NCBI GenBank assembly: GCA_049513715.1
Contig: JBEKVV010000001.1
Location: forward strand, 672,001 to 736,000
Reading direction: 5' to 3'
DNA length: 64,000 nucleotides
Source of the DNA: Candidatus Bathyarchaeia archaeon
Lineage (GTDB): Archaea > Thermoproteota > Bathyarchaeia > 40CM-2-53-6
The position numbers are program-made. Of this stretch, positions 1 to 64,000 are shown in pieces (the first letter of the stretch is position 1; each line of letters opens with the position of its first letter).

Positions 1-3000
1 TTCTTTGATTCTGATTACTCATAATATGGGTATCGTTGCTGAAATGGCGGATAGGATAGCAGTCATGTATGCTGGGCGACTCGCTGAGATAGCCCCCACA
101 ATCAACATCTTCGAAAATGCAAAACATCCCTACACAAAGGCGTTGTTGGAATCTATACCCAACATCAAGGCGGAAGATAGGATTCTCAAAACAATTCCAG
201 GAGCGCCTCCGGACCTGACCGACTTGCCTTCAGGTTGCGCGTTTCACCCAAGATGCCCATATATGTTCGACAGATGCAAAATGGAAGTCCCGGCGCTAGT
301 CCGAACAGGGAATGAGGCTGAAGCATCCTGCTTCTTATTGGAGGGAGTTGCAGCACGTCCTTCATTGAAGTCAAAAGCCTGAGAAAGTATTTCCCCGTTC
401 AAAAGGGACTGATTTCGCAGCTCTTCTCTAGGGCGACGCAGAATGTGAAGGCCGTCGACAACGTTACTTTCGAGATAAAACGTGGAGACATCTTTGCTCT
501 AGTCGGGGAATCCGGCAGCGGAAAGACCACGACCGGGAGAATCACCGCAGCCCTAATCAAACCAACACAAGGAAGCGTGATAATCGACGGCACTGATATT
601 TCCTTGCTTCGGAGGCGTGAACTGAGAGAATTCAGAAAAAGAATGCAGTTCGTCTACCAAGATCCACTCTCATCCCTCAACCCGAAAATGCATATTGGTG
701 ATGCGATTGGAGAGCCACTTCGATATCTGACTGATACCCCTCAATCAGATCGAAGACGCAAAGTCTTTGAACTTCTCGAACGAGTGGGACTTTCACCCCC
801 AGAGACCTTCTACGATAGATATCCGCACCAGCTGAGCGGAGGGCAGAGGCAAAGAGTGGTAATAGCCAGAGCGATCGCCATTGGCCCAGAGTATTTGGTT
901 GCCGACGAACCTGTTGCAATGGTTGACGTTTCGGTTAGAGCTCAAATAATAGAATTGCTGCTCAAAATGCAGAAAGAACTGCACCTCACCATCCTTCTCA
1001 TCACACACGACTTAGCCGTCGCCAAATACATGTGCAACAAGATCTCAGTCATGTACCTTGGCAAGATAATGGAGTCGGGCACTACGAAGGAAATGTTTTC
1101 GAACCCACTCCATCCATACACTCAAGCCCTACTGGAGGCAGTCCCAGTACCTGACCCAAGAGTAACCGCCCCGAAATCCTTACCGATGGGAGAGATACCT
1201 AGCGCACTGAATCCTCCTAAAGGCTGCCCCTTCCACCCACGTTGCTCGCGTGTCTTCGACCGATGCCGAAGTGAAGAGCCCCGAATGCTCAAGGTTTCAG
1301 AAACTCACTACGTTGCATGCCACCTATACGACAAGTAGCTAATTACTGGCCTCAGCTGGCCTACACATTTCCCAGTGCCCTGATTTGCTGAACCCCAGTC
1401 GACTGTAGAACTCGTCGGTTCCGCCGACCGGAACTGCCGTGAATTCATCTGTCGGATTGCCTGCAATTACCGACTTAATGAGAGCTGAACCGACACCCGA
1501 ATTCTTGTTTGAATCAGAAATCTGCAAACATAGTATCGTCATCTGGTTTGGCATCTTCCGGCTGACTGCAGTAAGACCGATAATTCTGCTTCCTTGAAGC
1601 GCAATCCAAACCGTGTGACCCGTCCCGATCACACTAACCTCGACACACTCTCTTGTAATCGGCATGCTAGGGTCTAGCGAGAGATCTTACATGTCTCCCA
1701 GTTTTCCTTGGCGATAAACGACTTGAGTCTCTATTCGCAATCAAGTTCGATTCAGATTTGACCATAAGGTTTATCTTGTTTGCCGTAATCCGCTCGCCGA
1801 ACAAAAGTTTCCAATCCTCAAAATAGGTACGAATGTTTGGATTTGAGAATCGTTGGGTAAGCAAATTCGGGTGCAGCGGCGTGGAAAAGGCGGCTCTCAA
1901 TTCACCGCCCGTTCCTTTAGGCGACTTGCTCCAGTAAGATTTCCTCCTGCCACGCAAGCACTCAAAGGTGTTGTTCGCGAGATAATGCACGATCCGGCCA
2001 GAGGAACACCACTCGCCCTGATTGAATTCACAAACGGAAATGCCTGCTGCTTAGCTGCGCCCGAGGGCCTAGCCCTAAATCAAGGCATAGATTTTGGCGA
2101 AAGAGCATCACCAGATGTCGGTAACGTATTGCCTTTAGGACGGATGCCTGAAGGTACTCTTGTCTGCAGTGTTGAATTGCGCCCAGGTGACGGCGGGCGA
2201 GTAGCAAGGGCTTCGGGAACATACTGCATGGTTGTTTCACATACCCCTCAAGGGACTGAGTTGCGATTGCCATCCGGCAAAGCTGTTTACATGAACGATC
2301 ATTGCAGGGCAATGGTTGGCGTTGTGGCTGCAGCGGGAAGAACTGAGAAACCATTCCTTAAGGCAGGGACAGCTCAGAAATTGATGACCGCACGGGGACG
2401 CGTGTGGCCTACGACGAGTGGTCAAAAGATGATTTCTGCTTCACACCCCCACGGGGGAGGAAGGCACAAGCATTCAGGAAAGCCAACAACTGTATCTAGA
2501 AACGCCCCTCCTGGCAGAAAGGTTGGGATGATCGCGGCTCGACAAACCGGGCGAGCCAAACGCGCTATACGCACATAGGTGATTTGAATGACATTGGTCG
2601 ATCCGCTCGCAAATGCATTGAACACGATTCATAACAACGAACGTCGTCATAAACGGGAATGCATCGTTTGGCCGGCCTCCAAGTTGATGGGGCAGGTTCT
2701 GCGTGTGATGCAGAAGAATGGTTACATCGGCGAGTTCGAGTTCATTGACGACGGCCGCGCTGGGAAATACCGCATTCAATTGCTCGGTCGAGTGAACCGG
2801 TGCGGAGTGATTAAACCAAGGTACGCTATGAGAGTGCCCGATATTGAACATTGGGAGGAAAGATATCTTCCTTCACGCGAAGTCGGCGTCCTAATCGTGA
2901 GCACACCGAAAGGCGTAGTATCCCATTCGGATGCGAGAGTCGCCAAAACAGGTGGACGGCTGCTCGCCTTCGTTTTCTGATGCTTCTTCTGGAAACGCTT

Positions 3001-63000: not shown

Positions 63001-64000
63001 CTCATTGACTTCGCCGCTACTTTGTGCGATTTGGATGGATTGAACTTCGTCTTTGATGTCAGCCGCGAGCCCCACGAGTTTGCCGGTGGGCCGTCCCATA
63101 GCGTCCTCGATGGTCTGCCCAAGGTACTTTCCGATTTCCTCAACAGTCAAGGTCAACCTAGCACAAGACCCCTTAGTGTGAAAGGCCTGCTTCGCCAACT
63201 CTTGTTGGGCTGAAACCGTTCGCCGGTAGCTCTGGGAACCGATCTTTCATGTGCTGGTCCGCGATCGTGTTAGCTTCTCCTAGAATCCTCTGCGCTTCTA
63301 TGCCTGATGCTTCAACGTCGTAGGCTGTGCCAGTAGTTTCGCCGACCTCGTCTACGACATTACTTAGAACCTCCCCGATTTGGCTAAGTTCGAAACCGAC
63401 TTCTGGAATGACACCCGTGATTTGGTTCTTTATTGAATGTACGACGCTGGCCACTGGGGCCATCATTCGGGCGACGTCGCCGAATTCCTCGATCGTTTCA
63501 AGCCGTATTGAGACCTGCTCCAAGGCCAATTGGCATTGAAGAGTGACTTTAGCCATTTTGCGCACTTCTGCGCACTCATTCGCGTACATTGCGGCTCGCG
63601 CCGTATCGTGGCCCATCTGAGAACTAACACATTTGTTGAAAATGTCTTTGTCGTGCTGTTGCATTCGGATTGTTGCCGATTCGAGTTTGTTCTTCTGAAC
63701 TCTTAGTCTGTAAAGGGCTGAAGCAATCTGTTCCTTTACCGGTACCTTATGGTGGAACCTTCCGCTCATTCTGGAGACTAGGGGTTCGGATGGTTCTCTA
63801 TCCCAGTCCTTGAGAAATCCGCTATTCAATGTCCTGACCTCCAATTTGTGGTTGCAACAATTCTTGTCGTCGGTTGTCCGTACGAGAACGAATGCTATTC
63901 AAATTTCGTGCAAGAAAGCTGTCAAGAATCGGTGAGCCAACGAAATTAGTTTCTCATAATCAGCAGTCACGAAGCCTATTTGTTCAGCATTCTGACTTCA

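What a model noticed while it worked through the whole genome (the two positions that open the first line are those of the whole stretch)
1..64000. Nearly every tRNA gene is interrupted, most by two or three introns at non-canonical sites
Standard finders see 17 tRNAs (rna.tsv). A search for paired acceptor ends plus a T arm, joined with Infernal and ARAGORN hits, gives 36 tRNA loci of 72-202 nt, of which only 3 are of mature length (72-75 nt). Removing BHB-flanked inserts in silico gives good cloverleaves for 23 loci with 44 introns (5 genes with one, 12 with two, 5 with three), only 12 of them at 37/38. About ten expected isoacceptors were not resolved or not found and may be still more fragmented or split. 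This would make a mesophilic peat/soil Bathyarchaeion one of the most intron-dense tRNA sets known, outside the Thermoproteales and Asgard where such sets were described. Its relatives in other families keep uninterrupte [...]
Evidence so far: rna.tsv has 17 tRNA rows. ARAGORN -i gives 33 calls, many inconsistent. Infernal RF00005 on the whole genome at E<=10 gives 37 hits, 18 over the cut. The acceptor/T-arm scan gives 28 loci, and the union is 36 loci on C1-C5 and C9. Solver: cloverleaf score >=29 of 32 for 23 loci. Examples: C1:746945-747087(-) Cys GCA, 143 nt, introns after 8, 37 and V5; C3:315622-315763(-) Lys CTT, 142 nt, introns after 30, 37 and 51; C4:148380-148571(+) Lys TTT, 192 nt; C3:94292-94433(+) Ala GGC, 142 nt. 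Intron sites: 37/38 x13 (12 after 37, one after 38), positions 27-30 x9, D arm x11, variable region x5; the other six lie after 8, 34, 35, 40 and 51. Check against relatives: the 74-nt tRNA-Lys(CTT) left aft The finding spans contig positions 35196 to 747087; this window holds only 672001 to 736000 of it. [...]
(Added by a program. Inside this text positions count along the whole contig: contig position 672,001 is position 1 of the stretch shown here. "Call 12" and the like, gene names such as g00115 and contig names such as C1 are that model's own, and its searches are not shown. The text may have been shortened before it was handed on; [...] marks where a part breaks off. The agent that wrote the report below was given it as the finding of a first reader that could run no searches.)

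Follow-up and report, generated by a model that had tools for sequence, protein, structure and literature searches.

The report
Almost all tRNA genes carry introns
In this uncultured Bathyarchaeia archaeon about nine in ten tRNA genes are broken by one to four short enzyme-spliced introns, mostly at unusual positions; this is an extreme case of a known gene structure, and none of these genes lies in the window itself.

Summary
The genome-wide observation is real, but the 64-kb window holds no tRNA gene. I wrote my own bulge-helix-bulge (BHB) solver and calibrated it on the reversed genome. With alignment to compact or sister tRNAs it resolves 34 genes carrying 65 introns. Four genes have no intron, 6 have one, 15 have two, 7 have three and 2 have four. 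So 88% are interrupted, at 1.9 introns per gene, and only 18 of 61 introns sit at 37/38. ARAGORN accepts the spliced forms. In 20 congeners tRNA-Lys(CTT) reads 74/74 identical across three or four inserts of varying length. Of those inserts, 69 of 71 have a BHB, against 3.3% of shuffled controls. The genome encodes a crenarchaeal-type two-subunit EndA and RtcB. This is a new member of a known kind (Thermoproteales, some Asgard). I found no paper describing it for Bathyarchaeia, but this scan has already noted it in other Bathyarchaeia genomes. About nine isoacceptors remain unfound, and no RNA evidence was available.

The parts
1..64000 (.). Whole window: contains no tRNA gene, tRNA fragment or intron of the kind described. 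All features lie elsewhere in the genome; contig coordinates are in the Full report section.
   Evidence: ARAGORN 0. Rfam 0 at gathering score and 2 chance lncRNA hits at E<=10. No ARAGORN -i call in C1:672001-736000. My T-arm/acceptor scan gives one candidate without a solution.
20335..20412 (-). T-arm plus acceptor look-alike (C1:692335-692412). Rejected, not a tRNA.
   Evidence: No cloverleaf/BHB solution with up to 4 introns. No Rfam or ARAGORN hit.
58540..58564 (-). T-arm look-alike with an atypical loop (C1:730540-730564). Rejected, lies in coding sequence.
   Evidence: Strict T-arm scan hit with no acceptor partner. It lies inside the 581-aa ORF 56872-58617(-).

Best explanation
The tRNA genes of this Bathyarchaeia genome are ordinary functional genes interrupted by short (11-59 nt, median 24) archaeal protein-spliced introns. 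The pre-tRNA folds so that each exon-intron pair forms a bulge-helix-bulge motif or a relaxed version of it. A two-subunit (alpha-beta) splicing endonuclease with the crenarchaeal specificity loop cuts in both bulges at any position of the tRNA, and RtcB joins the exons. Some BHBs form only after a neighbouring intron has been removed, which implies ordered splicing. Shown: the inserts, the restored cloverleaves, BHB enrichment, exon identity across species, and the presence of the enzyme genes. Inferred: that splicing actually happens, the order of cuts, and enzyme assembly and specificity. The load (88% of resolved genes, 1.9 introns per gene, up to four) is a trait of the whole family and, more weakly, of the order.
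For: cmscan places inserts in the D loop, anticodon loop and variable region of strong tRNA hits. With BHB tier <=3 and score >=32 the solver passes 28 of 119 real candidate loci and 0 of 71 decoys. With tier <=2 and score >=31 it passes 21 real and 0 decoys. ARAGORN without intron mode accepts 27 of 29 spliced products with the same anticodon. It accepts all 32 entries of the final table with the expected anticodon, and 0 of 9 listed decoy solutions. Motif-free alignment to compact tRNAs of other families gives the same insert lengths as the solver for Gly TCC (73/75 identical), Arg GCG, Arg TCT, Arg TCG, Thr CGT and Met. Lys CTT is 74/74 identical in 21 of 21 genomes despite insert lengths of 16-28, 14-17 and 19-31 nt. 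Lys TTT is 72-74/74 identical in 21 of 24 loci examined. BHB is present at 69 of 71 motif-free inserts against 3.3% of 2130 shuffles. In G000 itself it is present at 12 of 24 against 2.4% of 1200. Compensatory changes keep the intron hairpins. EndA alpha matches A. pernix 3p1z_B at E 2.5e-41 and keeps Tyr/His/Lys and the K-P-K of the specificity loop. The second paralogue lacks the His. RtcB scores 578 bits.
Against: There is no RNA evidence: the only two runs found are contigs that do not cover any tRNA locus. In the final table 2 of 61 introns have no BHB and 16 only a weak one. At strictly guide-defined boundaries 8 of 24 have none. Several solutions were wrong at first and had to be replaced with guides (C3:421836, C4:128273, C1:124615, C4:148380). 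The 51- and 59-nt 'introns' of Pro GGG and Gly CCC contain D-loop-like motifs and may each be two introns. About nine expected isoacceptors were not found. The bin has 8.8% contamination. Orthologues are related, so counts across them are not independent.
Confidence: 0.9

Rival explanations
1. Over-fitting: with relaxed motifs and up to four deletions a cloverleaf can be carved out of many sequences. On this view the true intron load is much lower, and many loci are not tRNA genes or carry only one intron.
For: Decoy loci reach scores of 29-32 of 34. Alternative solutions with other anticodons exist for long loci. Two solutions that passed my thresholds failed ARAGORN (C1:28398-28588 and C1:57575-57734).
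Against: No decoy reaches the thresholds used, and none of 9 listed decoy solutions passes ARAGORN. Insert positions and lengths are confirmed without any motif by compact relatives and by identical exons in 20 congeners. The covariance model itself shows the inserts.
Confidence: 0.04
2. Many of the interrupted loci are decaying pseudogenes or leftovers of mobile-element integration, and the working tRNAs are encoded elsewhere (missing from the bin, or on contaminant contigs).
For: Real tRNA fragments exist. There are eight copies of a Pro(GGG)-like 3' end and a partial 3' copy of Lys TTT, some next to integrase-like genes. Contamination is 8.8%.
Against: Each resolved anticodon occurs once. 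Only four compact genes exist in a 99.4% complete genome. Exons are 100% conserved while introns drift, and the BHB helices are kept by compensatory changes. The same low detectability holds in 18 congeners.
Confidence: 0.03
3. A minority of the inserts (those without a recognisable BHB, mainly in the D arm) are not EndA introns. They are either removed by another route, or retained, or their boundaries are misplaced by a few bases.
For: The Ala GGC D-arm insert scores (H3, h0, h'2). The second insert of Leu TAG and both Thr TGT inserts show no BHB at guide-defined cuts. The Asgard census preprint reports the same for D-arm inserts (passages).
Against: Shifting a cut by 1-4 nt often restores a BHB (Arg TCG: solver tiers 2 and 1, against none at the aligner's cuts). 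Broad-specificity EndA cuts relaxed motifs (PMC3241643 passages).
Confidence: 0.2

Closest known systems
Multiple-intron tRNA genes of Thermoproteales (e.g. Pyrobaculum calidifontis)
   Same: Short BHB introns at canonical and non-canonical positions, with more than half of the genes carrying several. The enzyme is a two-subunit EndA with the specificity loop. Both belong to the TACK/Thermoproteota side of the Archaea.
   Different: The load is higher here: 1.9 per resolved gene against 1.54 (preprint passage). There are up to four per gene, against a stated maximum of three (PMC4033280 passage). No intron families are shared between tRNA types: 0 pairs lie above the shuffle maximum. In Thermoproteales 28% of introns belong to such families (preprint passage). 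Habitat and growth temperature were not tested here.
[quoted passage not shown]
   Same: About 90% or more of genes are interrupted and most have several introns. D-arm and 29-31 positions are common. Standard finders miss many genes. There are no intron families. [quoted passage not shown]
   Different: This is a different phylum. Asgard genes reach five introns and 2.0-2.4 per gene. The EndA type of those Asgard genomes was not compared here.
Aeropyrum pernix (alpha-beta)2 EndA, PDB 3P1Z/3AJV
   Same: The alpha subunit aligns over 179 residues (E 2.5e-41), with the catalytic Tyr/His/Lys and the Lys-Pro-basic motif of the Crenarchaea-specific loop. A second, divergent paralogue lacks the catalytic His.
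   Different: Assembly, activity and substrate range of the Bathyarchaeia enzyme are untested. The beta subunit is most similar by sequence to the M. kandleri and M. jannaschii proteins rather than to a crenarchaeal beta chain.

Membership tests
Archaeal BHB (protein-spliced) tRNA introns | Short insert in a tRNA gene whose removal restores a canonical cloverleaf | tested here: met
   34 genes and 65 inserts. Cloverleaf scores are 32-34 of 34 for the interrupted genes. ARAGORN accepts the spliced forms.
Archaeal BHB (protein-spliced) tRNA introns | Bulge-helix-bulge (4-bp helix, two 3-nt bulges) or a relaxed form at the exon-intron boundaries | tested here: met
   Of 61 introns, 12 are strict, 31 relaxed, 16 weak and 2 have none. 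At motif-free boundaries 69 of 71 fit against 3.3% of the null, and 12 of 24 against 2.4%.
Archaeal BHB (protein-spliced) tRNA introns | Splicing endonuclease and RNA ligase encoded | tested here: met
   Two PF01974 genes (C1:841621-841866 and C4:134780-135019). RtcB at C2:140350-141660.
Archaeal BHB (protein-spliced) tRNA introns | Introns removed from the RNA (spliced junctions, circular introns) | not testable with these tools
   No RNA holder covering a tRNA locus.
(alpha-beta)2 EndA with Crenarchaea-specific loop | Two paralogous subunits, one catalytic (Tyr/His/Lys) and one structural | tested here: met
   Alignments to 3p1z_B and 1a79_A: the C1 protein keeps Y, H and K, while the C4 protein has no His at the aligned place. 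Residue roles in M. jannaschii EndA are recalled, not taken from a call.
(alpha-beta)2 EndA with Crenarchaea-specific loop | Loop with the conserved Lys (K44 of A. pernix) and a second basic residue | tested here: met
   A. pernix K44-P45-R46 aligns to K39-P40-K41 of the C1 protein with no gap. The role of the loop comes from PMC3241643 passages.
(alpha-beta)2 EndA with Crenarchaea-specific loop | Heterotetramer assembly and cleavage of non-canonical introns | not tested
   No complex prediction or assay was run.
Thermoproteales-type intron expansion by transposition | Related intron sequences recur in different tRNA types of one genome | tested here: not met
   The best local score among the 61 introns is 13, equal to the maximum of 20 shuffles. 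0 pairs lie above it.
Split or permuted tRNA genes | 5' and 3' halves encoded apart or in reverse order, with BHB-forming leader and trailer | not tested
   Orphan 3' ends exist, but they look like integration remnants. No search for matching 5' halves was made.

The most novel reading that the evidence does not exclude
The genus is in active tRNA-intron turnover on a species timescale. A D-loop intron at the same site (after position 17) is polymorphic in both lysine tRNA genes. In Lys(CTT) it is confined to one clade of 8 species, which fits one gain. In Lys(TTT) it is homologous in 12 carriers spread over the tree and precisely absent in 9 species in at least three places, including one of two very close sisters; this fits repeated exact loss or allele replacement. 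The two introns share no sequence. If this holds on a proper species tree, this genus of more than 20 genomes would be a natural system for asking how tRNA introns arrive and leave, which is an open question. The roughly nine unfound isoacceptors may hide still more fragmented genes.
Probability: 0.45. Interest if true: 0.65.

Novelty: new member of a known kind. Interest (0 to 1): 0.5.

Why it matters
This is a third archaeal lineage, after Thermoproteales and two Asgard classes, whose tRNA set is almost wholly interrupted. It shows that the state arose repeatedly. It also shows that a broad-specificity EndA is permissive but not sufficient: five Bathyarchaeia genomes with 40-46 detectable tRNAs also carry two EndA paralogues. 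In practice, standard finders see 9-18 of roughly 40 or more genes here and mislabel others. The ARAGORN calls 'Pyl(cta)', 'Tyr(gta)' and an intron-less 'Ser(gct)' are artefacts of intron-bearing Gly, Thr and Ser genes. tRNA counts used as a genome-quality criterion, and codon or code inferences, will therefore be wrong for this group. The many congeners with identical exons and variable introns give clean material for studying intron gain and loss.

Tried and rejected
RNA evidence: the look-up of sequencing runs listed no RNA holder. It gave only two small-share runs kept as contigs. Laid on C4:128201-148200, they cover no tRNA locus and show no joints, so they give no evidence either way.

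Solver runs: the first two solvers were too slow and allowed class-II errors, so I replaced them with solver3. With up to 3 introns, 190 of 212 candidate loci were run and the 22 longest were not. With up to 4 introns, 91 loci of 125 nt or more were run; the rest were already solved or not reached in time.

Rejected solutions:
- C1:28398-28588 (GAG) and C1:57575-57734 (ACG) fail ARAGORN.
- C3:421836 read as Gly CCC is now Ser CGA.
- C4:128273 read as Arg TCG is now Leu TAA.
- C1:124615 read as Ser GGA is now Leu TAG.
- C4:148380 read as Arg CCT is now Lys TTT.
- C1:291177 read as Tyr GTA is now Thr TGT.

Unresolved or only partly resolved: C4:128581-128721 (Arg CCT-like, 141 nt), C1:392519-392642 and C1:416362-416476 (Ser-like), C1:25718, C3:419076-419240, C1:468231-468435.

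Other attempts:
- Intron families: none found.
The lead is not verified.
- Trp, His, Gln, Glu CTC, Tyr, a third CAT tRNA, Pro CGG, Leu CAA and Ser GGA were not found. No dedicated search for split or permuted genes was made.
- Literature: the searches 'Bathyarchaeota'+'tRNA introns' (1 paper), 'Bathyarchaeia'+'tRNA'+'intron' (5) and 'Bathyarchaeia'+'tRNAscan-SE'+'introns' (2) found nothing on this subject. I checked passages of PMC7714728, PMC12918454 and PMC9793634; PMC8816317 was seen only in the search listing. Supplements were not read.
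Full report
SCOPE. The finding is genome-wide. The window is G000:C1:672001-736000. It contains none of the features. ARAGORN finds nothing. Rfam finds nothing at gathering score and two chance lncRNA hits at E<=10. No ARAGORN -i call falls in the range. The two T-arm look-alikes from my scans are rejected. Window 20335-20412(-) has no solution. Window 58540-58564(-) lies inside a 581-aa ORF. All further work used the laid genome: 2.79 Mb, 11 contigs, 51% G+C, completeness 99.4%, contamination 8.79%.

Plain ARAGORN gives 9 calls and ARAGORN -i gives 33. RF00005 gives 37 hits at E<=10, with 18 over the cut-off. 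The interruption is therefore visible to a covariance model without any intron model.

INDEPENDENT SOLVER AND CONTROLS. I scanned both strands for a T arm followed by an acceptor 3' strand with a pairing 5' strand within 230 nt. This gave 132 candidates in the genome and 80 in the reversed genome used as decoy. I then enumerated intron sets under the published BHB geometry. In that geometry, four exon bases upstream of the 5' bulge pair with four intron bases upstream of the 3' bulge, and the cut falls after the second base of each 3-nt bulge. Spliced products were scored on a 34-point cloverleaf.
- With up to three introns, 190 of 212 loci were run. At BHB tier <=2 and score >=31 there were 21 real loci and 0 decoys. 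At tier <=3 and score >=32 there were 28 real and 0 of 71 decoys.
- With up to four introns, one of 36 decoys reached 32 and none reached 33.
- ARAGORN in no-intron mode accepted 27 of 29 spliced products with the same anticodon. It accepted none of the 9 listed decoy solutions.
- Strict GC-rich T arms number 46 against 2 in the decoy. This fits a normal-sized tRNA set.

INVENTORY. tabulates 32 genes with 61 introns.
- ARAGORN calls every entry with the expected anticodon. The script's own tally is 30 of 32. The other two are the intron-less Val TAC and Phe GAA, where my scorer was out of register but ARAGORN reads tac and gaa.
- Adding Ser CGA (C3:421836-421985, two introns) and Thr TGT (C1:291177-291289, two inserts, 70/74 identical to Thr CGT) gives 34 genes and 65 introns.
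- Four genes are compact: Arg CCG at C1:739938, Asp GTC at C4:144551, Val TAC at C2:278860 and Phe GAA at C5:206546. Six genes have one intron, 15 have two, 7 have three and 2 have four.
- The two four-intron genes are Lys TTT (C4:148380-148571, 192 nt, introns of 26, 32, 29 and 31 nt) and Leu CAG (C5:220120-220321, 202 nt, introns of 32, 29, 28 and 28 nt).
- Of the 61 tabulated introns, 18 follow position 37, 8 follow 30, 4 follow 29, 5 lie at V2, 10 lie in the D loop and 3 follow position 8. Lengths are 11-59 nt with a median of 24.
- BHB quality: 12 strict, 31 relaxed, 16 weak, 2 none.
- Three further loci are clearly interrupted but only partly resolved: Arg CCT-like C4:128581-128721 and Ser-like C1:392519 and C1:416362.
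- The 51- and 59-nt 'introns' of Pro GGG and Gly CCC carry D-loop-like motifs and may each be two introns.
- ARAGORN's intron-less Ser(GCT) call has two acceptor mismatches. The true gene, C2:77370-77477, has a perfect acceptor and a D-loop intron.

MOTIF-FREE CONFIRMATION. Compact tRNAs were taken from five genomes of other families of the order. G000 loci were aligned to them with long gaps allowed.
- The alignment gave the same insert lengths as the solver for Gly TCC (73/75 identical), Arg GCG, Arg TCT (69/75), Arg TCG, Thr CGT and one Met gene.
- It revealed two inserts in the second Met gene (69/75) and three in Ala GGC (70/75), which the BHB solver could not solve.
- The Met introns fit a BHB only once the other intron is removed, which suggests ordered splicing. 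The D-arm insert of Ala GGC has no BHB.
- At strictly guide-defined cuts in G000, 12 of 24 introns have a tier <=2 BHB against 2.4% of 1200 shuffled-intron controls. Several of the misses differ from the solver's cuts by 1-4 nt.

CONGENERS. RF00005 detects only 8-19 tRNAs in 18 same-genus genomes.
- Orthologues of Lys CTT were found in 20 of them. In all 21 loci the 74-nt mature sequence can be read 74/74 identical across inserts at the same places. Insert lengths vary: 16-28, 14-17 and 19-31 nt.
- Eight species have a fourth insert of 22-25 nt in the D loop.
- Of these 71 inserts, 69 have a tier <=2 BHB and all have four central pairs. Only 3.3% of 2130 shuffles do. The loci are related, so this is not a count of independent events.
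- For Lys TTT, 21 of 24 loci examined give 72-74/74 identity. Twelve have four inserts and nine have three. Two of the other three loci are cut by contig ends, and one is G000's own partial copy.
- Intron hairpins keep pairing through double changes, for example in the Lys TTT D-loop intron of one species.

TURNOVER. I built a rough tree from about 3.7 kb of DNA flanking the two Lys loci. It is midpoint-rooted and some nodes are weak.
- The tree confines the Lys CTT D-loop intron to one clade of eight species (support 0.99).
- The Lys TTT D-loop intron is homologous in all 12 carriers. It is missing in three separate places on the tree, including one of two very close sisters.
- The two D-loop introns share no sequence.
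- This fits one gain plus repeated exact losses or allele replacements. It needs a proper species tree.

MACHINERY. There are two PF01974/PF02778 proteins.
- The C1 protein (186 aa) aligns to the A. pernix EndA chain 3p1z_B (E 2.5e-41). It keeps the catalytic Tyr, His and Lys, and K39-P40-K41 aligns with K44-P45-R46 of the Crenarchaea-specific loop. In the passages I read, that loop and Lys44 confer cleavage of introns at non-standard positions (PMC3241643).
- The C4 protein (192 aa) is divergent and has no His at the aligned place. This matches a structural beta subunit.
- RtcB is present.
- Two EndA paralogues also occur in 5 of 5 Bathyarchaeia genomes that have 40-46 detectable tRNAs. The enzyme is therefore permissive, not the cause of the accumulation.

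DISTRIBUTION. The survey covered class members at least 90% complete, with RF00005 hits at E<=1e-6.
- The four genomes of this family show 8-12 hits.
- Nine genomes of other families of the order show 11-27 hits.
- Thirty-eight genomes of other orders show 14-46 hits.
- Detectability is only a proxy for intron load.
- In five genomes of other families, 31 of 127 listed matches are 73-76 nt long. Those relatives are less affected but not uninterrupted.
- Close relatives of EndA alpha lie in records titled Bathyarchaeia or Bathyarchaeota in 26 of 28 cases.

COMPARISON WITH WHAT IS KNOWN.
- Thermoproteales: 70% of tRNAs carry introns, with a maximum of three per gene and evidence of intron transposition (PMC4033280 and PMC11291895 passages).
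- Asgard Atabeyarchaeia and Freyarchaeia: 92-95% of genes are interrupted (PMC11291895 passages). A 2026 preprint (10.64898/2026.10.13.758758; abstract and passages) gives 2.0-2.4 inserts per gene, up to five in one gene, no intron families, and 1.54 per gene for P. calidifontis. It does not mention Bathyarchaeia.
- The present set (1.9 per resolved gene, up to four, no intron families) resembles the Asgard pattern in a TACK lineage with a crenarchaeal-type enzyme.
- My searches found no paper describing this for Bathyarchaeia.
- Earlier notes of this scan report the same in other Bathyarchaeia genomes, and report the three-intron Asn gene of this genome. I confirm the latter.

VERDICT. It is a new member of a known kind.

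Noticed in passing
G000 C2:373502-373526 (in L025), C3:166055-166079, C3:181344-181368, C3:427307-427331, C4:149704-149728 and C4:150377-150401 (in L024/L118), C5:206495-206519 (in L023), C1:892314-892338 (in L026): Eight copies of the same 25-nt T arm plus acceptor 3' end as in tRNA-Pro(GGG). Only one copy belongs to a gene I could solve. The two C3 copies lie 15.3 kb apart with a weak integrase-like ORF (C3:166805-167155) next to the left one. The C5 and C1 copies share about 250 nt of upstream sequence, including a tRNA-Phe T arm. They look like attachment-site remnants of integrated elements, not split-gene halves.
   Followed up: partly
L118:1501-1614 (G000 C4:150473-150586): A partial 3' copy of tRNA-Lys(TTT), 86% identical to nt 81-192 of the gene and including introns 3 and 4, lies 1.9 kb downstream of the full gene. 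Similar second hits occur in two congeners. This resembles a duplication made by an element integrating into the tRNA gene.
   Followed up: partly
G000 C5:218633-219133: A strong tyrosine-recombinase (PF00589, 98 bits) gene lies about 1 kb from the four-intron tRNA-Leu(CAG) gene at C5:220120-220321.
   Followed up: no
L032:1474-2052 (G000 C4:134780-135019 region): The presumed EndA beta-subunit gene sits in the most tRNA-rich stretch of the genome. C4:128-151 kb holds Leu TAA, Arg CCT-like, Arg TCG, Asp GTC and Lys TTT.
   Followed up: no
G000 C1:159361-159385, C1:573337-573361, C2:419820-419844, C9:19639-19663: Four tRNAs (Ala TGC, Gly CCC, Gly TCC, Thr CGT) have a T loop reading TCCRA instead of TTCRA. 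That puts a C where the near-universal U55 (pseudouridine) stands. A compact Gly TCC of another family has the usual TTC.
   Followed up: no
G000 C2:419817-419913, C1:291204-291288, C2:77367-77448: The ARAGORN calls 'tRNA-Pyl(cta)', 'tRNA-Tyr(gta)' and an intron-less 'tRNA-Ser(gct)' are artefacts of intron-bearing Gly TCC, Thr TGT and Ser GCT genes. They could mislead annotation or genetic-code inference.
   Followed up: yes
L147/L149 (G000 C2:395288-395785) and L148 (G000 C4:141033-141239): Two LAGLIDADG domains lie inside one 1062-aa ORF, which looks like an intein. A free-standing 282-aa LAGLIDADG ORF lies on C4. No tRNA gene could be solved beside the latter.
   Followed up: partly
L063:859-1555 (G000 C4:129059-129755): This is the only part of the 20-kb stretch with deep cover in the two metatranscriptome-labelled runs (contigs at depth 30 and 85, 1-2% different). 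The gene there was not examined.
   Followed up: no
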